A stretch of DNA of 64,000 nucleotides. Origin: Coleofasciculus chthonoplastes F2-STO-03. GTDB taxonomy: Bacteria > Cyanobacteriota > Cyanobacteriia > Cyanobacteriales > Coleofasciculaceae. Shown here piece after piece: positions 5,325-61,116 of the stretch. The notes beneath the pieces were generated by a model that was not told the DNA's origin, made no database searches, and was given only the letters and a program-made list of their open reading frames with translations. A program made the position numbers and the translations under genes. How positions within the stretch are numbered: the stretch's first letter is position 1; each line of letters opens with the position of its first letter. Location: positions 28,712 to 92,711 of the forward strand of contig JAVJWO010000165.1 in assembly GCA_040222015.1 (NCBI GenBank). Reading direction: 5' to 3'.

Positions 5325-7709
5325 CTACATTGGCTTCCAAGTATTCAGGGATTCTCGAATAGAAGTCAAATCACTCAGATACTCATTTAGTGCGGTTTTT
5401 TGATCCTCAAGTTTTGCACGAATGTGATCAGCCTCAGCTTCTTTCGTCTCCCGATCCCTCAGCAAGGTGTCAAGAACCTCTTGACACCTTTTCATGTATT
5501 GGTTGATTTGCTTCTCAGCCATATTGAAGTCTGCTGAAACCTGTACTTGAATCACTCGCTGTAAAAGTTCTCGGCTTCCAGATGCCTGATTATTTATCTT
5601 CTCCTTGATTACCCGTGCCGTTTCGTGCAAGTCAACTTCGTAGAAGGAGTTTTCCTCTGTAATTTTGACATCAACTTCATATGGCACTTCTTCTATGTAA
5701 AAATCAACAGGCTTGCATAAACTATCACCTACCTTCATTCTGAGTTCTGAGCGATATTTAGTTTCTCTCTTTAACCTCGTATATACCTTTACTTGATGTT
5801 GGATTTGTGCATCTATTCCTTCAAATTAAAAATTAGGAAACTGGATGGTATTAATGTTTAGTTCAACTTGCAATGATTCTCCAAGATAACTTGACAATTC
5901 ATTTGATATTTCTTGGATATCCTTTTGGATCTTTTCTACCAACTCCTCTCGAATTCGTGTTCCTTCTCTGACAAGAGCGTCTTGTGTGTCTATCCACCAA
6001 CTCTGAATGTGAGGAGAGCAAAAGTTATTGATAATATTCCCAATTTTTTGGGCTTCTTCACTGTTCTTAACCCTAATTTTGTATGGATCTAACTTTTCAT
6101 ATTGCTCAAATTCAGGATTATTAAATGATTCGGGTATGGTGTTAATCAGAATATCTAGTAGAGGCGATATTACTTTGAAAGATTTAGCGAAGCTTTTCCC
6201 TACGCCAGGAATATGCTCTAACATAGAACCTGCTATGTTCTTAATATTTCTGAAGAGATTTTTTACACCAAAATCATCATTACTCTGTATGATTTCTCCA
6301 GATATGGGTATAACTTCAGACTTTGGGCGCTTAGAATCTCTGGCATCAGCAATTTTCTTAATCTCATCATCAATTTTTAACTTAGCACCCTCAGCAAAAG
6401 CACTGATTCCTTGGCTAAACCCCCTAATTAATATCTGTTTTTGTTCTTCTACAGAGTCTTCTACAGTCTTAACCTTCCTTTTAGCAGATTCAGAGCGCTG
6501 CCTAAACTCTTCTACCTTTTGTTTGAGAGCTTCCAGTTCCATCTCCCAACCTCGGATTTGTGTATTGAGAGTATCTTCTATTGCTTTTGCCGCTTTATCA
6601 AGTTTTGCTAAAACATCATTCAAAAGATTCCATCCCGAATTTTGAATGATAGTTTGAATAACTGTATCCTCAACAGTAGGGATTCCACTATCTTTTAAAG
6701 CTTGTGGTGCAATCTTTCGAGGCGCAGGAGTAACGAGATCGCCTTCCTCATTCTCTGTAGCATACTTGGCACTAAAGAACCTTTTGAAGTCCTTTAGCTG
6801 GCTCTCTGCTGCTGTACTTTGCTGAATTAGCTTCGCCAATAACCCTTGCCATGCACTTACAGGGTAGACATTTGGTTCTGGAATGCCAAAGCTGATCAAC
6901 GTTTCCTTTAAATCTTTAATTACATCAGCAATTTCTCGATCCCTCTCTGACTTCCGGTCAACTTTGTTGAGGATAAAGTAAATTTTTCCGGTGTTCTCTG
7001 CCAGAAACTCTCCACGCTGTTCTATTAAATCTTGCAGCAACTCTGAATTAGTGTTGTCTTTAAACGAAGAGTAATCCAAAACAAACAAAATTGCATTACA
7101 AGTGCGTAGAGCTTCTAATGCCGTCTGTTTCAGTGCAACTGTATTGAATCCAGTAGACTGCCATTCATTTGGTCCCGGTGTATCAACTAAGGTGAAGCCT
7201 GCCAGAGATGAGTATTTACTGATTGCCTCAATGGGATGCCACAGTTCAAAACGTGTGGTGTTGTCAGAGTTATTATTCTCTCGAATTTCACGGGTACGAT
7301 TAAGAAAATCTTGCCGAATCTTTCCACTGTCACCCTTAGCAATTAGAATGGGCTTCCTTTGTCCCTGTCGATACTCCAAAAGATTGGGTACTTGTCCAGC
7401 TTCCAACAGGCGGACATCGGTACGGCAAACGGTACAGGCTTCTGATTCACTCGCTAAAATATCCGCACCAATCATGGCATTTAGGAAGGTACTCTTACCT
7501 GCCTTCATTGCAGCAATCACGGCGACTTGATACTTTTGAGCTTGCAAAGCCTCCAGAGCTTTGTTGAGTTCATCCTCAATACTGTGCAATCCCTCGCTAT
7601 TATTTCCCTCACTGCGGCGTCCCTCTTCAATCTCTCGAAGGTACTGCAAAAGCCGCGTACCAGTGCTATGGATGCTTTCGTATGTCGCTTGGAACTGCTC
7701 AGAAGACAT
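5325..7709 (-). pseudogene. Bacterial dynamin-like GTPase (CrfC/LeoA-type) split by one in-frame TAA
   Basis: AAMKAGKST, DTPG and NKVD GTPase motifs; ORFs 5826-7709 and 5325-5738 share a frame: FPNF*FEGIDAQIQ... Confidence 0.8.
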
Positions 7710-19598: not shown

Positions 19599-19671
19599 GG
19601 GGGCGTAGCTCAATGGCTAGAGCAAAGACCTGTCGAGTCTGAGGTTGCGAGTTCAAGTCTCGTCGCTCCCG
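19599..19671 (+). tRNA. tRNA-Asp(GTC)
   Basis: Cloverleaf, acceptor GGGGGCG/CGCTCCC, loop CT-GTC-GA. Confidence 0.9.
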
Positions 19672-19677
19672 CTATCT

Positions 19678-19751
19678 GGCTCCATCGTCTAGGTGGACAA
19701 GGATCTCTGATTTTCGCTCAGAAGACACGGGTTCAAATCCCGTTGGGGCTA
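19678..19751 (+). tRNA. tRNA-Glu(TTC)
   Basis: GGCTCCA/TGGGGCT; TCTGA-TT-TTC-GC-TCAGA. Confidence 0.9.
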
Positions 19752-19846
19752 TGACATTGATGAACTAGGTCAAGTTGTCAAGGGGTTGAAGGGAATACTG
19801 ACAACTCCTACCTTGACCTTTAAAAGAAGCAGATTATTTGAGGAAG

Positions 19847-19919
19847 GGGAGTATAGCTCAACTGGCAGAGCATACGGCTTTTAACCGTCTGGTTGCAGGT
19901 TCGATTCCTGCTGCTCCCA
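19847..19919 (+). tRNA. tRNA-Lys(TTT)
   Basis: GGGAGTA/TGCTCCC; loop CT-TTT-AA. Confidence 0.9.
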
Positions 19920-19929
19920 CTCAATTTTT

Positions 19930-20002
19930 GGGAGTATAGCTCAGTCGGCAGAGCAGCACCCTCATAAGGTGCCAGTCGCAGGTTCAATCCTTGCTACTCC
20001 TA
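19930..20002 (+). tRNA. tRNA with CAT anticodon (elongator Met or Ile2)
   Basis: GCACC-CT-CAT-AA-GGTGC. Confidence 0.85.
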
Positions 20003-20009
20003 CTGCTCC

Positions 20010-20081
20010 AGCCTCATCGTCTAGTGGTTAGGACGCTGCCCCCTCAAGGCAGAAAGAGGAGTTCAAGTCTCCTTGGGGCTA
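20010..20081 (+). tRNA. tRNA-Glu(CTC), C at position 33
   Basis: AGCCTCA/TGGGGCT; CTGCC-CC-CTC-AA-GGCAG. Confidence 0.8.
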
Positions 20082-20084
20082 TCT

Positions 20085-20191
20085 GGAGAGGTGGCTGAAT
20101 TGGTGAAAGCACTTCCCTGCTAAGGAAGCATGGGGCAACCCATTGCAGCTACTCTTCGAGAACGCTCCGCGAACAAATCCTGTCCTCTCCG
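20085..20191 (+). tRNA. tRNA-Ser(GCT) with T-arm disrupted by a short insertion (probable pseudogene)
   Basis: GGAGAGG/CCTCTCC; CTTCC-CT-GCT-AA-GGAAG; long variable arm; GCAG[CTACTCTTCGAGAACGCTCCGCGAA]CAAATCCTGT. Confidence 0.8.
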
Positions 20192-20230
20192 CTTTGTGTA
20201 GTATATCGAACCAGACATACTACATATCCT

Positions 20231-20313
20231 GGGTCGGCTCGCCTATTAGGGTGGGCAACTGTCTGTAAAACAGCCGCTTTCATGCGTTGCAGGTGCGAAT
20301 CCTGCCCGACCCA
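20231..20313 (+). tRNA. tRNA-Tyr(GTA)
   Basis: GGGTCGG/CCGACCC; loop CT-GTA-AA; long variable arm; T-loop TGCGAAT. Confidence 0.85.
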
Positions 20314-20344
20314 TTGAATTTTGGTTTCAAAGTTCAAATCGAAT

Positions 20345-20418
20345 GTAGGGATAGTGTAACGGCAACATCTCGGTCTCCAAAACCGAGGATCTGAGTTCAA
20401 ATCTCAGTCCCTGCGCCA
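20345..20418 (+). tRNA. tRNA-Trp(CCA), CCA end encoded
   Basis: TCGGT-CT-CCA-AA-ACCGA. Confidence 0.9.
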
Positions 20419-20429
20419 ATCAAACATTT

Positions 20430-20503
20430 CCCCTGGTAGCTCAGTTGGGTAGAGCGCTTGCCTGAAAAGCAAGAGGTCGTCAGTTCAATACTGACCTAGG
20501 GGA
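20430..20503 (+). tRNA. tRNA-Phe(GAA)
   Basis: CTTGC-CT-GAA-AA-GCAAG. Confidence 0.9.
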
Positions 20504-20510
20504 CTGGCAT

Positions 20511-20585
20511 TGCCCTATAGCTCAATGGTAGAGCCACGCGCTGTTAACGCGGGGGTTGTAGGTTCGAGTCCTACTGGGGCAGCCA
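20511..20585 (+). tRNA. tRNA-Asn(GTT), CCA end encoded
   Basis: TGCCCTA/TGGGGCA; loop CT-GTT-AA. Confidence 0.9.
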
Positions 20586-20590
20586 TTTAT

Positions 20591-20665
20591 TGCCCTGTGG
20601 TGTAACTGGCAGCATATCTGACTTTGACTCAGACGGTCTAGGTTCAAAACCTGGCGGGGCAGCCA
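20591..20665 (+). tRNA. tRNA-Gln(TTG), CCA end encoded
   Basis: TCTGA-CT-TTG-AC-TCAGA. Confidence 0.9.
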
Positions 20666-20671
20666 AATGAT

Positions 20672-20745
20672 GCTCTTGTAGCCCAATGGGAAAAGGCACC
20701 ATCCTAAGAACCTAGTTGTTGCTGGTTCGAGTCCAGTCAGGGGTA
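20672..20745 (+). pseudogene. Degenerate tRNA (probably Leu); anticodon stem does not pair
   Basis: Acceptor GCTCTTG/CAGGGGT, D arm and GGTTCGAGTCC T arm present; ACCATCCTAAGAACCTAG unpaired. Confidence 0.6.
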
Positions 20746-20754
20746 TTGGTGATA

Positions 20755-20831
20755 CGCGGGGATGAAGCAAGAGTGGCTTGCTAGGCTCATATCCTGGATA
20801 TCAGCAGGTGCAACTCCTGCCCCCGCCACCA
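20755..20831 (+). tRNA. Initiator-like tRNA-Met(CAT), CCA end encoded
   Basis: CGCGGGG/CCCCGCC with C1:C72 mismatch; CTAGG-CT-CAT-AT-CCTGG. Confidence 0.8.
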
Positions 20832-20835
20832 AAAT

Positions 20836-20907
20836 GCAGGTGTGGTGTAATGGCTAGCATAGAAGCGTCGTATCCTTCTGATGCGAGTTCGACTCTCGCC
20901 ACCTGCT
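20836..20907 (+). tRNA. tRNA-Thr(CGT) with C31:C39 mismatch
   Basis: GCAGGTG/CACCTGC; GAAGC-GT-CGT-AT-CCTTC. Confidence 0.65.
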
Positions 20908-20931: not shown

Positions 20932-21537
20932 TCAGGCAAAGTTTGAACGTTCACCTTCCCAAATCTGAAGTTGTCGTTCAGCCGCAACGATACAATTGAG
21001 AAACTTGGGTGGATGTAAAAAGTTGTCATAAGCAACTGCCATCTGTCTAGCCGCTTCGTGATAGGGAATTTGCCCTATTCCTGTGCCTAACCCAGGACAG
21101 GCAATCCTATCAATTTTTCGGGTGGCATTTTGATTGTATCGTCGAACCGCCAAAAGCATTGCCCACATTGCTGTGTATGGGATATCAGTGCCAGCAATCG
21201 ACATGGGTACTCGCATGGTGGGTGTATGAGCTAAAAAAGGGTGTTTTGGATGACCCGTTTCCACGATGAATGAGGTGCCAACAGGCTGTTCACCTAGGAA
21301 TTCTTCCAGGATGTGCTGCTGAACGTTGGTCATCAGGGAATTACCAAAAAACCGCACAATTTCTGCATCCATGCCCCCATCCATCATGCCAAATGAATTG
21401 GCAGGGCTAACTAAACAGTCAAATTCGGGCAACCACTGGAAATAGTCGTTGACGATTTCTACGTTGGGTAAATAGCTGAAATACTGTTGAAATGCTGCAA
21501 ACAGTTGTGAACTGGGAGCTACAAGTATTAACTTCAA
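20932..21537 (-). CDS. Macrodomain (ADP-ribose processing) protein
   Basis: DCLVSPANSFGMMDGGMD, HTPTMRVP, ACPGLGTGIG; GGAGG RBS before TTG start. Confidence 0.9.
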   Translation of the reverse strand: MKLILVAPSSQLFAAFQQYFSYLPNVEIVNDYFQWLPEFDCLVSPANSFGMMDGGMDAEIVRFFGNSLMTNVQQHILEEFLGEQPVGTSFIVETGHPKHPFLAHTPTMRVPMSIAGTDIPYTAMWAMLLAVRRYNQNATRKIDRIACPGLGTGIGQIPYHEAARQMAVAYDNFLHPPKFLNCIVAAERQLQIWEGERSNFA

Positions 21538-26987: not shown

Positions 26988-27179
26988 AGTTTTCTGGAGT
27001 TCGTTCGTAGTAGGCACGCTTCGTGCCAGAAGAAGCGCTGAAGCGCTTACTACAAACAGATTAATTAATCCTAGCATCAGATTTTCCAGTTGATGATTGA
27101 TGACTCAGGGCAAGTTGTTCCGTTAGTGGTGGGGAGGGCGGGTTTTGTTTTTCCGTTATTTCTGAATAGCTCAATTTAG

Positions 27180-27247
27180 TCCCTAAACCCGCCCCTACAA
27201 TTGTCCCTAAACCCGCCCCTACAATTGTCCCTAAACCTACCCCTACA
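27180..27247. repeat. Short tandem repeat TCCCTAAACCCGCCCCTACAATTG x~3
   Basis: Direct inspection. Confidence 0.8.
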
Positions 27248-27310
27248 GAGGGCTAAATCTACCCCTAGAATTGACGTATAAGGTATAAATTATTACTTAT
27301 GAACCGGATT

Positions 27311-27546
27311 GCGATCGCGCCTTGCGTACCCTGACTTCTAAGAGCCTACATACTTAGTACGAGAGGAAGAGTAACGCTGTTCTATTAACAGTGGGCGTTT
27401 GAGAACGAGGAGTGCGAAGAACCCGATAGGTTGGCTTAGAGGTAGCCATCCTTTAAAGAGTGTGTAATAACTCATCGGCGGAGTCCCTCTAGTAACTGAG
27501 AAGGCGCATAACAACGCTCTGGTAACTTGCACGCGAGGGCGATCGC
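27311..27546 (+). ncRNA. Putative ncRNA mimicking the 23S rRNA sarcin-ricin loop and GTPase-associated centre
   Basis: SRL hairpin 27351-27373 (AGTACGAGAGGA); H43/H44 copy 27423-27478 with compensatory changes; 5' and 3' ends complementary. Confidence 0.8.
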
Positions 27547-27596
27547 ACAATTACAGGATCTTGGACTATAATAGTACAAAAATACTAATTAAAATT

Positions 27597-28058
27597 ATGC
27601 CGATTTATTTCTACAGCACCCGTGAAAAACCCTACGGTTGCTTTTCCAACTTCTCTCGCCATGGTTTTGAGTTAGATGGTTGTTGGTGGGCAACGAGTGA
27701 ACATTACTTCCAAGCACAGAAATTTGTCGAGACGGATCGTCCTTGGTTCGACAAAATCCGCGAAGTAAAAACGCCTAAAGACGCTGCCAAAATGGGCAGA
27801 AGTCGGCAACACCCTCTCCGTCACGATTGGGAACAGGTCAAGAATGAAATTATGAAGCGGGGAGTGTTGCAGAAGTTTGAAACTCATGCTGATATCCGTG
27901 AGATACTTTTGGCGACAGGGGATGAGTTGATTGTCGAGAATGCCCCCAGAGATTACTACTGGGGATGCGGTAAAGATGGCAGTGGTAAAAATAAATTGGG
28001 AGAGATTTTAATGGCAGTGCGAGAGATATTGCGTCAACCTCTTACAAATGACAAATGA
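27597..28058 (+). CDS. NADAR family protein (YbiA/DUF1768)
   Basis: YGCFSNFS, TSEHYFQAQKF, LLATGD..IVE..DYYWG.G..G.GKNKLG.ILM. Confidence 0.93.
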   Translation: MPIYFYSTREKPYGCFSNFSRHGFELDGCWWATSEHYFQAQKFVETDRPWFDKIREVKTPKDAAKMGRSRQHPLRHDWEQVKNEIMKRGVLQKFETHADIREILLATGDELIVENAPRDYYWGCGKDGSGKNKLGEILMAVREILRQPLTNDK

Positions 28059-28118: not shown

Positions 28119-28191
28119 GGGTCTGTAGTTCTAATGGGAGAACGCCTGTTTTGCACACAGGAGGTTGCGGGTTCAACCCCCGCCAGATCCA
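28119..28191 (+). tRNA. tRNA-Ala(TGC)
   Basis: G3:U70 present; CCTGT-TT-TGC-AC-ACAGG. Confidence 0.9.
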
Positions 28192-28195
28192 TGAT

Positions 28196-28271
28196 GGTGT
28201 CTGAAGCCAAAGCGGTCGCGGCGCTTGTTTGTGGAACAAGTCAATAGCGGGTTCAAGTCCCGTCAGACACC
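28196..28271 (+). tRNA. tRNA-His(GTG)
   Basis: G-1:C73; CTTGT-TT-GTG-GA-ACAAG. Confidence 0.9.
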
Positions 28272-28278
28272 CTTCAAT

Positions 28279-28365
28279 GGAAGATGCCGCTGAATGGACG
28301 GCAAGCGGTCTTGAAAACCGTGGTACGGCAGCGATGCCGTAGGGGTTCGATTCCTCCATCTTCCT
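28279..28365 (+). tRNA. tRNA-Ser(TGA)
   Basis: GGAAGAT/ATCTTCC; loop CT-TGA-AA; long variable arm. Confidence 0.88.
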
Positions 28366-28369
28366 TTAT

Positions 28370-28441
28370 CCACCGGAAGCCGAAAAGTGAGGCGCTGTGC
28401 TGATAATGCAGAGGTAGAAGGGGCAGTACCTTCCCGGTGGA
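28370..28441 (+). tRNA. tRNA-Ile(GAT), atypical T-loop
   Basis: CCACCGG/CCGGTGG; CTGTG-CT-GAT-AA-TGCAG; T-loop GGCAGTA. Confidence 0.75.
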
Positions 28442-28446
28442 TTCAT

Positions 28447-28517
28447 CCCTCTGCCAGTGGATTCTGGCACTGATACTACGAATATCGGATGCGGTGGTTC
28501 AATTCCATCCAGAGGGG
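28447..28517 (+). tRNA. tRNA-Arg(ACG), atypical D arm
   Basis: CCCTCTG/CAGAGGG; TGATA-CT-ACG-AA-TATCG. Confidence 0.78.
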
Positions 28518-28558
28518 TTTGATCGGGGGTGAGTAGCTGTAATCAAAAAGCTGGAAAC

Positions 28559-28924
28559 ATTTACCCATTATTGCCCATGCATTGGGTAGAGACTTGTCCC
28601 GATGGAATGGGTTCGACAAGAGTAAGTAGTCGGACACAAGTTTTGGGAACTGTATAAAGTTTTGTAAGCATTACCGCAACGCTTGTGACATAAAAATTCG
28701 TGCTGTTTTACATTTCTTAACACAGAGCCGTTTATTTATGTCCGACTACTTATGTATACTTTTTGGTGTACCTATCCAGCCAAAAACCACAGCTAGATAG
28801 GTGACTTTATATAGCCGCCAGTTAGGTGGTGTTAGCCTGTGGACTGGTTAAGTGCCGTCACTGCCAGGATGAAGCAGGAAGTAAGTTCCAATGATGTCCA
28901 TGCTTTGGATAAGTTTGGGTAAAT
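28559..28924 (+). ncRNA. Putative multi-hairpin ncRNA in tRNA spacer, interrupted by a MITE
   Basis: Closing stem ATTTACCCA/TGGGTAAAT and several internal hairpins. Confidence 0.45.
28623..28752. mobile_element. MITE with TA-flanked TIRs
   Basis: TAAGTAGTCGGACA ... TGTCCGACTACTTA perfect 14-bp inverted repeat. Confidence 0.7.
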
Positions 28925-28933
28925 CTTATATAA

Positions 28934-29006
28934 CGGAATGTAGCTCAATTGGCAGAGCAGGTGACTCTTAATCACTGGGTTGCAGGTTCGATTCCTGTCA
29001 TTCCCA
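28934..29006 (+). tRNA. tRNA-Lys(CTT), C1:C72 mismatch
   Basis: GGTGA-CT-CTT-AA-TCACT. Confidence 0.85.
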
Positions 29007-29074: not shown

Positions 29075-29308
29075 ATGTCTGTACAAGCCATGAAAATACA
29101 AGATCTAAAACTAGAACTAATTCAGTGGATTTTATTATTGCAAGATGTTCAACTTTTAAATGAGATCCAGACTATCAAAGAAAATTCAGCGGAAAATATA
29201 GTCCCTACTAAGCCTCGCCAATTTGGTTGTGGCAAAGGTATTTTTAGTTATGTGGCAGATGATTTTGATGCAACACCTCCGGGTTTTGAAGACTATATGC
29301 TACCATGA
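29075..29308 (+). CDS. Antitoxin (DUF2281/VapB-like)
   Basis: KPRQFGCGKG...ADDFDATPPGFEDYM; ATGA overlap with PIN toxin gene. Confidence 0.8.
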   Translation: MSVQAMKIQDLKLELIQWILLLQDVQLLNEIQTIKENSAENIVPTKPRQFGCGKGIFSYVADDFDATPPGFEDYMLP

Positions 29309-29685
29309 ACTATTTAATTGATACTCATATCTTAATTTGGTTTCTTGAAGGGAACACTAACCTTTCTAAGCAGGCACAAGACTTAATCGGTAATCCTGCT
29401 AATTCCATTTATGTCAGTCAAGCGAGTTTGTGGGAAATGACCATTAAGATTAGTATCGGCAAGTTGTCTTTGTCGATTTCATTGTCTGAGTTAGAAATTT
29501 TTCTAATAAATAATCAGTTTCAAATTTTAGACGCTAAGTTTAGTCATTACGAAATATTGCAGCATTTGCCCTTTCATCATCAAGATCCTTTTGACCGCTT
29601 GATTATCGCTCAGGCAAAAGCCGAAGATTATATGATCATCACAAATGATAATCGCTTCAAACTGTACAATGTAAAATTGGTGTAA
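29305..29685 (+). CDS. VapC-family PIN-domain toxin
   Basis: LIDTHILIW, SLWEM.IK, HQDPFDRLIIAQA, ITND. Confidence 0.92.
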   Translation: MNYLIDTHILIWFLEGNTNLSKQAQDLIGNPANSIYVSQASLWEMTIKISIGKLSLSISLSELEIFLINNQFQILDAKFSHYEILQHLPFHHQDPFDRLIIAQAKAEDYMIITNDNRFKLYNVKLV

Positions 29686-60809: not shown

Positions 60810-61116
60810 CTCTCGCCTGGGCAGTTACAGACTCGTGCTTTTAACCTGTACGATATGGGTGATTGTTGCCCCGTGAAGGGCGCTTCCGTTTCCGGAGTAA
60901 TGTGGGTCCTCGCATAAGTTATGCCTCGGTACTATCTCCAACACACTGGTTTAACCCTGTAAGCCTGTTTAATGCTGGAGTTCTAGAGCTTGGGGCTGGC
61001 ACGCACCCCAAGGTAGGAACTTTAACGCTTAGACATAACGTAGACCGCGTAGGTCTTAGGCTGGTCAGGTATGGGCTTGATTCAAGCCCCTAGCTGTCTT
61101 CTATGGGGTTCCTGAC
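60810..61116 (-). ncRNA. HEARO/omega-RNA (IscB-type) on a non-autonomous IS200/IS605-derived element without ORF
   Basis: Minus strand GTCAGGAACCCC..GGGGCTTG..CAAGCCC..CTGACCAGCCTAAG..CTACGTT..GGGGTGCGTGCCAGCCCC..TTAAACAG..GCGAGG..ACATTAC. Confidence 0.8.

What the first reader, a model, noticed from the sequence alone, without database searches (positions are those of the whole stretch)
27423..27478. GAC copy shows compensatory changes including the 1072-1092-1099 base triple
Aligned by eye to E. coli 23S 1052-1107 (from memory): CCAG/CUGG becomes CCGA/UCGG, U1058-A1080 becomes G-C, and C1092-G1099 becomes U-A together with C1072 to U. The last matches the known C.C-G to U.U-A triple covariation of the L11-binding domain. 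A1067 and A1095 (thiostrepton contacts) are kept. Random decay of an rRNA pseudogene is unlikely to give three coordinated changes, so the tertiary fold appears to be under selection or came from a divergent rRNA.
Basis: partly seen in the sequence, partly recalled or inferred. Interest (0 to 1): 0.8.

Follow-up and report, generated by a model that had tools for sequence, protein, structure and literature searches.

The report
Ribosome factor-site mimic RNA in tRNA arrays
The rRNA-like stretch is one part of a conserved small RNA, encoded among spare tRNA genes of filamentous cyanobacteria, that copies both halves of the ribosome's docking site for translation factors and may act as a stand-in for that site.

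Summary
Window 27423-27478 (+) is an isolated 56-nt look-alike of the 23S GTPase-associated centre (GAC). It carries compensated stem changes and a U/U-A version of the 1072/(1092-1099) base triple.

It is not an rRNA relic. It is one module of a 216-nt structured RNA (27322-27537). That RNA also carries a sarcin-ricin-loop (SRL) look-alike, 15 of 15 nt identical to a same-genus 23S, and part of helix 42. All sit on a long-stem scaffold that resembles Y-RNA-like (YrlA) RNAs.

The RNA is conserved across filamentous cyanobacteria: 120+ genome hits and 60 metagenome hits. Covariation is strong (22 of 43 pairs). Within the family the base triple switches as a unit: U/U-A in 50, C/C-G in 3, C/U-A in 1 of 54 distinct sequences.

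It lies inside long tRNA arrays, and all 1162 neighbouring tRNA genes are on its strand. ADP-ribose-removing enzymes (PARG, NADAR, Macro) and RNA-repair genes lie beside it.

My best reading, which is inferred, is a trans-acting stand-in for the ribosomal factor-binding site, made together with the spare tRNAs. A sister RNA mimics helix 69, and phage tRNA clusters carry lone helix-43 look-alikes. I found no description in print or in Rfam.

The parts
27322..27537 (+). Whole structured RNA element (216 nt), the only copy in the window and in the own genome
   Evidence: Covariance model R1 matches at 217 bits, E 2.5e-59, over model positions 1-209. It is the only blastn hit in the own genome. 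It aligns with 127 other distinct copies.
27324..27329 (+). P1, 5' strand of the outer closing stem; pairs with 27529-27534
   Evidence: 4 of 6 pairs change on both sides in A1 and 5 of 6 in A3. The window copy has one A-C mismatch.
27341..27345 (+). P2, 5' strand of the second scaffold stem; pairs with 27516-27520
   Evidence: 98% of cells are paired. Pair 28-223 occurs as AU 65, GC 24 and GU 30.
27346..27353 (+). Nearly invariant CUACAUAC box shared with sister scaffold RNAs
   Evidence: Nearly invariant columns in A1. The same box occurs in tRNA-like and helix-69-type sister RNAs.
27353..27367 (+). Sarcin-ricin-loop look-alike; the AGUACGAGAGGA core is at 27356-27367, flanked by stem 27351-27353 / 27371-27373
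   Evidence: 15 of 15 nt identical to positions 2638-2652 of a same-genus 23S, E 4.7e-4. The core is kept in 26 of 26 distinct pattern-free copies.
27375..27393 (+). P4 hairpin following the SRL module
   Evidence: 5 of 5 pairs change on both sides in A1 and in A3.
27395..27398 (+). P5, 5' strand of the long-range helix; pairs with 27504-27507
   Evidence: Pair 90-203 occurs as UA 75 and CG 27. 3 of 4 pairs change on both sides in A3.
27407..27420 (+). Helix-42-like 5' strand (GGAGUGCGAAGA at 27409-27420); 27407-27411 pairs with 27484-27488
   Evidence: 11 of 12 nt identical to 23S 1058-1069. A local alignment scores 29 against 19.5 +/- 3.6 for shuffles, with 6 of 300 shuffles reaching it. The helix is 84% paired, and its register is ambiguous.
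27423..27478 (+). GAC look-alike (helices 43 and 44): the finding itself
   Evidence: Rfam LSU model at 52.4 bits. The closing stem and helix 43 covary. The triple positions are 27443/27463/27470.
27179..27272 (.). Four tandem 24-nt repeats upstream of the element; role unknown
27561..28058 (+). NADAR-domain gene directly downstream
   Evidence: Pfam NADAR, E 1.1e-43. NADAR lies downstream on the same strand in 14 of 81 loci.
28119..28365 (+). tRNA-Ala, tRNA-His and tRNA-Ser on the same strand
28934..29006 (+). tRNA-Lys on the same strand
19599..20907 (+). Main tRNA array of the island (11 tRNAs by ARAGORN; Rfam lists more)
20932..21537 (-). Macro-domain gene beside the array
   Evidence: Pfam Macro, E 2e-12. 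A Macro gene lies in 15 of 81 loci.

Best explanation
The GAC look-alike is one module of a roughly 215-nt non-coding RNA carried by the long, horizontally spreading tRNA gene arrays of filamentous cyanobacteria.

A long stem formed by the RNA's two ends, laid out like a Y-RNA-like scaffold, presents two modules side by side. One is a copy of the sarcin-ricin loop. The other is a copy of the stalk base (helix 42 in part, and helices 43-44 complete with their base triple). In the ribosome these two elements together form the docking and GTPase-activating site for translation factors.

I propose that the RNA is transcribed with the spare tRNAs. In Nostoc-type genomes it would be transcribed from a TrcR-type stress promoter. 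It would then be trimmed to a stable RNA and act in trans as a stand-in for that site. In that role it would soak up or bait agents that recognise or attack the site. The likeliest agents are RNA-targeting toxins: ADP-ribosyltransferases of the Tre23 kind, which modify helix 44, and SRL-cutting or depurinating enzymes. GAC-binding thiopeptides are less likely. The neighbouring ADP-ribose hydrolases and RNA ligases would undo the damage.

Shown: the RNA's existence, conservation, secondary structure, triple covariation, rRNA identity of its modules, and its array and gene context.

Inferred: trans action, the identity of the ligands, and the decoy role.
For: (1) Structure under selection. On 128 distinct copies, 95.1% of cells pair, against 91.0 +/- 0.1 in shuffles (0 of 500 reach it) and 35-52% when partners are slid. 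22 of 43 pairs change on both sides. An independent metagenome set gives 96.4% paired and 23 of 43 pairs, though that alignment was fitted to the model.

(2) Both rRNA modules. The SRL is 15 of 15 nt identical and the GAC 44 of 56 identical to a same-genus 23S, and helix 42's 5' strand is 11 of 12 identical.

(3) Tertiary fold kept. The triple is U/U-A in 50, C/C-G in 3 and C/U-A in 1 of 54 distinct sequences. True 23S is C/C-G in 13 of 13 distinct sequences.

(4) An independent gene, not a leader. 67 of 81 loci have tRNA genes within 3 kb, and 1162 of 1162 of those tRNAs are on the element's strand. A tRNA lies within 300 nt upstream in 59 loci and downstream in 39.

(5) Stress promoter. The TrcR site TGTAGTAT, with at most one mismatch, lies within 100 nt upstream in 13 of 121 loci. 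Ten of these have a tandem pair about 12-15 nt before the 5' end. Control windows show it in 139 of 3637. L-arrays are induced when translation is impaired (PMC8421152, abstract).

(6) Neighbours. Microbial PARG occurs in 17, NADAR in 15, Macro in 15 and RNA ligase with a tRNA-binding domain in 13 of 81 loci. In a same-genus genome the order is PARG, tRNA-Arg, element, NADAR, tRNAs.

(7) Precedent for the attack. Tre23 ADP-ribosylates helix 44 of the GAC (PMC8661411, abstract and passages). NADAR enzymes remove base ADP-ribose (PMC12945103, abstract).

(8) A wider mimic theme. A sister RNA on the same scaffold copies helices 69-71: 26 of 28 nt identical, present in 17 of 251 genomes of the order. 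Others carry tRNA-like cargo. Helix-43 look-alikes stand alone in 34 viral contigs. None of these is a true 23S, and 28 have tRNA genes, all on the motif's strand.

(9) Contigs in RNA libraries hold near relatives. One example is a 194-nt contig that nearly coincides with the element. This is only a weak hint.
Against: No binding or activity was tested, and no ligand is known.

The bases called A1067 and A1095, the main thiopeptide contacts (recalled), vary in the family: each is A 45, G 7, C 2 of 54. That argues against a thiopeptide decoy.

The PARG, Macro, NADAR and Tpt1 neighbours (Tpt1) fit equally well with clearing by-products of NAD-dependent RNA repair (recalled pathway). They need not signal anti-ADP-ribosylation.

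I did not compare arrays with and without the element, so enrichment of these genes is not shown.

The single-sequence fold is unremarkable and differs from the covariation structure: MFE -55.5 kcal/mol, z +0.50, with 137 of 200 shuffles folding at least as well.

The helix-42-like helix is only 84% paired and its register is ambiguous.

RNA evidence comes from contigs only. These cannot show ends, strand or level, and DNA may be present in the libraries.

The window copy has no TrcR-type site and no consensus promoter upstream.
Confidence: 0.45

Rival explanations
1. The RNA binds the cell's own partners of the factor-binding site, namely the L10-L7/L12-L11 stalk proteins or a translational GTPase such as EF-G, BipA, HflX or RelA. 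By holding, storing or activating them away from the ribosome during translational stress, it tunes translation or the stringent response.
For: The parts copied are the natural binding sites of those proteins. Helix 42's 5' strand is 11 of 12 identical, the GAC fold keeps its triple, and the SRL is 15 of 15 identical. The RNA is co-encoded with stress-induced tRNAs. Isolated SRL RNA is reported to bind IF2 and EF-G (PMC3496166; search listing and start of the abstract only).
Against: This reading gives no reason for the ADP-ribose hydrolase neighbours. The loop base called A1067 varies. The own genome has single L10 and L11 genes on another contig and no array-linked paralogues. No binding was tested.
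Confidence: 0.25
2. The RNA is a Y-RNA-like adapter. A protein binds the conserved scaffold, and the rRNA-mimic module tethers it to whatever recognises the factor site. Alternatively, the module presents a substrate mimic to the array's repair or erasing enzymes.
For: The scaffold is a long terminal stem with an internal loop and an ACUUG box next to the lower stem. Sister RNAs with tRNA-like cargo share this scaffold, and they match Rfam YrlA below threshold: 37.1, 33.6 and 26.6 bits against a gathering score of 69. The loop and CUACAUAC box are nearly invariant, which suggests a bound partner.
Against: The own genome (99.99% complete) has no Ro60/Rsr (TROVE) gene. Only 2 of the 16 relatives that carry the element have one, against 11 of the 25 that lack it. 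The element itself gives no YrlA match at E up to 10. No scaffold-binding protein has been identified.
Confidence: 0.15
3. The RNA is a cis-acting leader that senses a GAC- or SRL-binding protein or drug and controls the downstream NADAR gene and tRNAs.
For: In the window it lies 24-62 nt upstream of the NADAR gene on the same strand. rRNA mimicry by mRNA leaders is a known principle (recalled; cited in papers listed).
Against: The downstream neighbour varies. It is a tRNA within 300 nt in 39 of 81 loci, NADAR in 14, and other genes elsewhere, such as a hypothetical protein and ThiF on a Dolichospermum plasmid. No terminator-like site lies between the element and the gene. The r-protein genes are on another contig.
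Confidence: 0.05
4. It is a decaying fragment of a 23S rRNA gene, an assembly chimera, or a DNA-level target copy for rDNA-specific homing endonucleases.
For: The pieces are rRNA-like. HNH endonuclease genes are common near the arrays (PMC8421152 section 22).
Against: The SRL and GAC lie about 1500 nt apart in a real 23S but 55 nt apart here. The same architecture recurs in 120+ genomes, 60 metagenome contigs and 2 plasmids. Compensatory pair changes and the triple switch are RNA-level selection. The rest of the element is not 23S-like.
Confidence: 0.02

Closest known systems
YrlA / bacterial Y RNA-like RNAs (Rfam RF02553; PMC4201824, passages read)
   Same: A modular RNA in which the 5' and 3' ends form a long stem with an internal loop, and a separate module mimics another RNA (a tRNA in YrlA). 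It is linked to RNA-repair genes. Sister RNAs in the same arrays carry tRNA-like cargo and match the YrlA model weakly.
   Different: The cargo here is rRNA-like (SRL plus helices 42-44). The element gives no YrlA match. The own genome has no Ro60/Rsr gene, and there is no co-occurrence with it among relatives. The 5'-strand motif given for Rsr binding is not matched exactly.
Ribosomal-protein mRNA leaders that mimic rRNA binding sites (recalled; papers listed seen as listing only)
   Same: A non-ribosomal RNA copies a protein-binding piece of rRNA.
   Different: Those leaders lie upstream of r-protein genes and act in cis. This RNA sits in tRNA arrays, far from the single L10 and L11 genes. 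It also joins two distant rRNA sites in one RNA.
The authentic GAC (L11-binding domain) and sarcin-ricin loop of 23S rRNA
   Same: The same helices, loops and base triple in the GAC, and the same 12-nt SRL core.
   Different: Here they are 55 nt apart on a 216-nt RNA. The triple is fixed as U/U-A in most copies, whereas all true cyanobacterial 23S examined have C/C-G. The loop bases called 1067 and 1095 are free to vary.
Cyanobacterial long tRNA arrays (L-arrays, trn operon; PMC8421152 abstract and section 22; PMC10272220 passages)
   Same: The element is a same-strand member of such arrays. In 13 of 121 loci it sits behind the TrcR-type site described for the trn operon.
   Different: In what I read and searched of those papers, only tRNA genes and protein genes are described. 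Term searches for 23S, sarcin and NADAR gave 0 hits in both main texts. Their supplements were not read.

Membership tests
Bacterial LSU rRNA gene (RF02541) | A match along the roughly 2.9-kb model, in an rRNA operon | tested here: not met
   Only model positions 1093-1148 match, and no other rRNA is in the window. The rest of the element is not 23S-like.
GAC / L11-binding domain fold | Helices 43 and 44 and the closing stem, supported by base-pair covariation | tested here: met
   Closing stem pairs occur as CG 105 / UA 22 and as AU 57 / GC 36 / GU 35. One helix 43 pair occurs as GC 115 / AU 6 / UA 5. The same trend appears in A3.
GAC / L11-binding domain fold | Base triple 1072/(1092-1099) kept as C/C-G or U/U-A (covariation rule recalled, not seen in a paper here) | tested here: met
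   U/U-A 50, C/C-G 3 and C/U-A 1 of 54 distinct sequences. 25 of 26 are U/U-A in a pattern-free set.
GAC / L11-binding domain fold | Binds L11 (and thiostrepton) and needs Mg2+/NH4+ to fold | not testable with these tools
   No RNA-protein or RNA-drug prediction was available. The bases called A1067 and A1095 are present in the window but variable in the family.
Sarcin-ricin loop motif | The conserved 12-nt core with its GAGA loop, closed by a stem | tested here: met
   15 of 15 nt identical to a same-genus 23S. The core is present in 26 of 26 pattern-free copies. The flanking UAC/GUA stem is conserved but shows no covariation.
Y RNA / YrlA | A Ro60/Rsr (TROVE) protein partner encoded in the genome | tested here: not met
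   None in the own genome. Present in 2 of 16 relatives that carry the element and in 11 of 25 that lack it.
Y RNA / YrlA | A match to the family's covariance model | tested here: not met
   The element gives no YrlA hit at E up to 10. Sister RNAs score 26.6-37.1 bits against a gathering score of 69.
Y RNA / YrlA | A long stem from the paired 5' and 3' ends with an internal loop, plus a separate effector module | tested here: met
   P1 and P2 flank a conserved loop, and the cargo modules vary between sister RNAs.
Ribosomal-protein leader | Lies upstream of the gene for the protein it binds | tested here: not met
   The only L11 and L10 genes are on contig C175. The element is on C165.
Member of a cyanobacterial L-array (PMC8421152) | Embedded among many same-strand tRNA genes | tested here: met
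   67 of 81 loci, with 1162 of 1162 tRNAs on the same strand. The window has tRNAs at 28119-29006 and an array at 19599-20907.
Member of a cyanobacterial L-array (PMC8421152) | TrcR-repressed and induced by translational stress | tested here: inconclusive
   A TrcR-type site lies upstream in 13 of 121 loci but not in the window. Induction was not tested.

The most novel reading that the evidence does not exclude
Mobile sets of spare tRNA genes, both cyanobacterial L-arrays and phage tRNA clusters, carry a kit of miniature copies of the translation machinery's RNA hot spots. The kit includes the factor-binding site (SRL plus GAC), the helix 69 bridge, lone helix 43 hairpins and tRNA look-alikes. 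These would work as RNA decoys or baits against toxins and drugs that attack those sites. That would be an RNA-based layer of protection, or for phages of counter-defence, for protein synthesis.
Probability: 0.3. Interest if true: 0.95.

Novelty: categorically new. Interest (0 to 1): 0.88.

Why it matters
The sarcin-ricin loop and the GTPase-associated centre are far apart in the rRNA sequence but work together in the ribosome. A natural small RNA that joins them would show that this pair can be selected as a unit outside the ribosome.

If the RNA binds factors, stalk proteins, toxins or thiopeptides, it would reveal a new way for cells and mobile elements to protect or tune translation. It would also offer a compact natural model of the factor-binding site for structural work.

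It adds a non-tRNA component to the stress-induced tRNA arrays and links them to reversal of ADP-ribosylation and to RNA repair. The helix 69 sister RNA and the phage helix 43 elements suggest that the principle is general.

Tried and rejected
- **Ro60/Rsr as scaffold partner:** rejected. The own genome has no TROVE gene, and there is no co-occurrence among relatives.
- **VWA-domain protein as a hidden Ro-like partner:** a 477-aa VWA-domain protein lies near the element in 10 of 81 loci. It was not found in the own genome and has no PDB sequence relative at E up to 1. Dropped.
- **r-protein leader:** rejected.
- **True rRNA or pseudogene:** rejected.
- **Other copies or sister scaffold RNAs in the window or own genome:** none found with R1 at E up to 1, nor with a scaffold regular expression. 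My first regular expression was faulty and found nothing, not even the element.
- **Helix 69 mimic in the window:** none, allowing up to 2 mismatches.
- **Full SRL-plus-GAC element in phages:** 0 hits in viral contigs with the SRL..GAC pattern. No full-length hit in GenBank phages.
- **Promoter or terminator in the window:** no consensus promoter upstream of the element and no TrcR-type site.
- **Single-sequence thermodynamic fold:** not informative (z +0.50).
- **RNAalifold consensus:** misfolds the SRL region, so I set the SRL and GAC pairs by hand from the Rfam structure line.
- **Sequencing runs:** only Logan contigs could be laid. Depth figures and uncovered parts cannot be used, and some X11 contigs are true 23S.
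- **Flanks of divergent high-GC metagenome members:** mostly no Pfam hit and no tRNA within about 330 nt in 9 of the 10 checked.
- **Earlier findings of this scan:** nothing returned.
- **Literature:** nine searches found no description of this RNA. The search for the base-triple paper returned only irrelevant hits, so that rule is recalled.
- **Not run:** Complex prediction, protein structure tools and the large protein searches, because the finding is an RNA.

Full report
**Observation.** Rfam's bacterial large-subunit rRNA model matches window 27423-27478 (+) and nothing around it. The match scores 52.4 bits against a gathering score of 50, E 1e-12, at model positions 1093-1148 of 2925. The structure line of that alignment gives helices 43 and 44 and a 4-bp closing stem.

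The own assembly (219 contigs, 99.99% complete) holds no 23S gene at all. I therefore used the four 23S copies of a same-genus genome (G002). 44 of the 56 positions are identical. Seven of the 12 differences are coordinated:
- Both inner pairs of the closing stem are swapped (CCAG/CUGG to CCGA/UCGG).
- Position 1072 goes from C to U.

[quoted passage not shown] Positions 27409-27420 are 11 of 12 identical to the 5' strand of helix 42 just before the GAC in that 23S. A shuffle control supports this modestly: score 29 against 19.5 +/- 3.6, with 6 of 300 shuffles reaching it. The remaining parts are not 23S-like. In a real 23S the two sites lie about 1500 nt apart. Here they are 55 nt apart.

**Conservation.** A BLAST search of 41 related genomes found a stretch of about 235 nt in 20 of them. 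Sixteen of those matches cover at least roughly 150 nt, and they come from several families of the order.

Those with informative titles are cyanobacteria, including Nostoc, Microcoleus, Moorena, Okeania, Laspinema, Coleofasciculus, Calothrix and Anabaena. One MAG is labelled Actinomycetota.

128 distinct copies of 204-218 nt align with 76% mean column identity. A covariance model built from them (R1) found full-length copies in 11 of 151 genomes drawn evenly from the phylum. Its other hits were the GACs of true 23S genes. The window and the own genome hold exactly one copy, at 27322-27537, scoring 217 bits. Two cyanobacterial plasmids carry full-length copies.

**Structure.** I set the helices from RNAalifold, from the Rfam GAC structure line and by inspection. 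I then counted pairs on the MAFFT alignment.
- 95.1% of cells pair. Shuffles give 91.0 +/- 0.1 (0 of 500 reach the observed value), and sliding the partners by 1-3 columns gives 35-52%.
- 22 of 43 pairs change on both sides, against 12.1 +/- 1.7 in shuffles.
- The hairpin after the SRL covaries at 5 of 5 pairs.
- The GAC closing stem, helix 43, the long-range helix P5 and the outer stems all show compensated changes.

A second set of 60 metagenome contigs, all full-length by R1 at 105-251 bits, gives 96.4% paired and 23 of 43 pairs. That alignment was fitted to the model, which biases it towards the structure.

Some evidence runs against a simple picture. The SRL's flanking stem is invariant, so it is uninformative. 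The helix-42-like helix is only 84% paired and its register is ambiguous. The single-sequence minimum-energy fold of the window copy is no better than shuffles (z +0.50) and differs from the covariation structure.

**The base triple.**
- In 26 distinct copies found without any sequence pattern, the triple is U/U-A in 25 and C/U-A in 1.
- In the metagenome set, whose search pattern leaves all three positions free, 54 distinct sequences give U/U-A 50, C/C-G 3 (L196, L220, L193) and C/U-A 1.
- Thirteen of 13 distinct true cyanobacterial 23S GACs, from 25 loci, are C/C-G.

The three positions therefore switch together inside this family. That is what selection on the GAC tertiary fold predicts. 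By contrast, the loop bases called A1067 and A1095 each vary as A 45, G 7, C 2.

**Genomic setting.** I examined 81 loci with at least 3 kb of sequence held.
- 67 have tRNA genes within 3 kb, 14.3 on average.
- All 1162 of those tRNAs are on the element's strand.
- The nearest tRNA is within 300 nt upstream in 59 loci and within 300 nt downstream in 39. The median gaps are 71 and 50 nt.

The element therefore sits in the arrays like one more gene. These are the long tRNA arrays (L-arrays) that spread horizontally and that, in Anabaena PCC 7120, are induced when translation is impaired (PMC8421152, abstract and section 22).

The repressor TrcR binds TGTAGTAT at the -10 box of that operon (PMC10272220, passages). 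This motif, with at most one mismatch, lies within 100 nt upstream of the element in 13 of 121 loci. Ten of these have a tandem pair ending about 12-15 nt before the RNA's 5' end. Control windows show the motif in 139 of 3637. The window copy has no such site.

The commonest protein neighbours in the 81 loci are microbial PARG (17), NADAR (15), Macro (15), a retropepsin-like protein (14), an RNA ligase with a tRNA-binding domain (13) and HNH endonucleases (10 and 10).

In a same-genus genome the order is PARG, tRNA-Arg, element, NADAR, then four tRNAs. The window lacks the PARG and tRNA-Arg piece. It keeps NADAR (27561-28058), four tRNAs and, 6 kb upstream, the main array with a Macro gene.

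**The scaffold and sister RNAs.** R1 also gave weak full-span hits near the element in other genomes. These are shorter RNAs with the same outer stem, the same loop (a CCCUAAC-type 5' side and an AACUUG 3' side), the same second stem and the same UUACAUAC box, but with different cargo. Three kinds of cargo were seen.
- tRNA-like cargo. Rfam calls tRNA inside these RNAs, and three loci match the Y-RNA-like family YrlA below threshold at 37.1, 33.6 and 26.6 bits, against a gathering score of 69.
- Plain hairpins.
- A copy of 23S helices 69-71 in one 187-nt RNA, 26 of 28 nt identical to the same-genus 23S, E 4e-7. That RNA is itself conserved in 17 of 251 genomes of the order but was not found in the own genome.

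The layout resembles Y RNAs (PMC4201824, passages). However, the defining partner Ro60/Rsr is not encoded in the own genome and does not co-occur with the element. It is present in 2 of the 16 relatives that carry the element and in 11 of the 25 that lack it.

**Phages.** The full SRL-plus-GAC pattern has no hit in viral contigs. A GAC-type 30-mer covering helix 43 and the following loop occurs in 34 viral contigs.
- None of them aligns to a true 23S beyond 55 nt.
- 28 have tRNA genes within 1.2 kb, every one on the motif's strand.
- None has the SRL core.

Pseudomonas phage Milchi shows the same arrangement in a non-coding stretch just upstream of a tRNA-Met. Rfam names only tRNAs in seven of these loci.

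**Expression.** Only Logan contigs could be laid, so ends, strand and level cannot be read, and DNA may be present in the libraries. Near relatives of the element are held in all four RNA-library runs laid. One 194-nt contig covers 27316-27507 with 4 differences. I treat this as a weak hint only.

**How it most likely works.** The following is shown:
- The RNA is a conserved, structured, array-embedded RNA.
- Its two modules are the two halves of the ribosomal factor-binding site.
- The GAC tertiary fold is maintained.
- Sister RNAs mimic other translation RNAs.

The following is inferred:
- It acts in trans as a stand-in for the factor-binding site.
- The neighbourhood of three ADP-ribose hydrolase families points to protection against RNA-targeting toxins. 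Supporting this, the toxin Tre23 ADP-ribosylates helix 44 of the GAC (PMC8661411), and NADAR enzymes remove base ADP-ribose (PMC12945103).

The same neighbours, together with RNA ligase and Tpt1, fit clearing the by-products of NAD-dependent RNA repair equally well. That pathway is recalled. Titration of the cell's own stalk proteins or GTPases remains a serious rival. A thiopeptide decoy is less likely because the bases called 1067 and 1095 vary.

**Novelty.** Rfam 15 has no family for this RNA; its only hit is the LSU model. Nine full-text searches found no description. The main texts of the two L-array papers have 0 hits for 23S, sarcin or NADAR. Their supplements were not read, and subscription journals are outside the library. 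The earlier notes of this scan returned nothing.

Noticed in passing
L181:5380-5566 (G127); also L250-L260: A 187-nt sister RNA on the same scaffold carries a copy of 23S helices 69-71, 26 of 28 nt identical to a same-genus 23S. It is conserved at 70-83% identity in 17 of 251 genomes of the order and was not found in the own genome.
   Followed up: partly
L262-L295 (IMG/VR contigs); L261:1169-1190 and 1498-1537 (Pseudomonas phage Milchi PQ464597): Lone helix-43-type GAC hairpins stand in phage tRNA regions. They occur in 34 viral contigs, none of which is a true 23S, and 28 have tRNA genes, all on the motif's strand. Several share a further conserved block downstream. Rfam names nothing there.
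   Followed up: partly
L180:1079-1203, L181:5981-6104 and 5804-5951, L183:157-292 and 1295-1424, L182:5671-5792 (-): Short RNAs in the same arrays share the element's outer stems and CUACAUAC box but carry tRNA-like cargo. Some match Rfam YrlA below threshold. Others of 76-79 nt carry only a hairpin.
   Followed up: partly
window 27280-27320, compared with L179:4941-5961: A 41-nt stretch just upstream of the element is 95-100% conserved in same-genus genomes but lies about 1 kb further upstream there. A microbial PARG gene and a tRNA-Arg sit in between. The window has lost that piece, and GCGATCGC sites flank the element.
   Followed up: partly
L179:8621-8819 (G002): A decayed second copy of the element (82.8 bits) lies 2.4 kb downstream of the intact one in a same-genus genome. 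Its SRL core is lost and its GAC is largely kept.
   Followed up: no
window 27179-27272: Four tandem copies of a 24-nt unit lie directly upstream of the element. Their arms are complementary to 27136-27145.
   Followed up: no
window 29075-29685: A small ORF followed by an overlapping PIN-domain ORF lies just after tRNA-Lys on the same strand as the element. It looks like a VapBC-type pair.
   Followed up: no
window 60897-61116 (-): A HEARO RNA (the HNH endonuclease-associated RNA and ORF family), 136.9 bits.
   Followed up: no
own genome G000: No 23S rRNA gene is present in the 219-contig assembly, although its completeness is 99.99%.
   Followed up: yes
L029:1087-2520 and 9 other loci: A 477-aa protein with a C-terminal VWA domain and an unassigned N-terminal part lies upstream of the element in 10 of 81 loci. 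It was not found in the own genome and has no PDB sequence relative.
   Followed up: partly
L194:1-297 (-): A Tpt1/KptA RNA 2'-phosphotransferase gene lies directly downstream of a metagenomic copy of the element on the same strand.
   Followed up: no
L220, L193, L248, L190, L226: These divergent, GC-rich (0.57-0.67) metagenomic copies of the element have no tRNA gene within about 330 nt. Two of them have the C/C-G triple. They may come from other lineages.
   Followed up: partly
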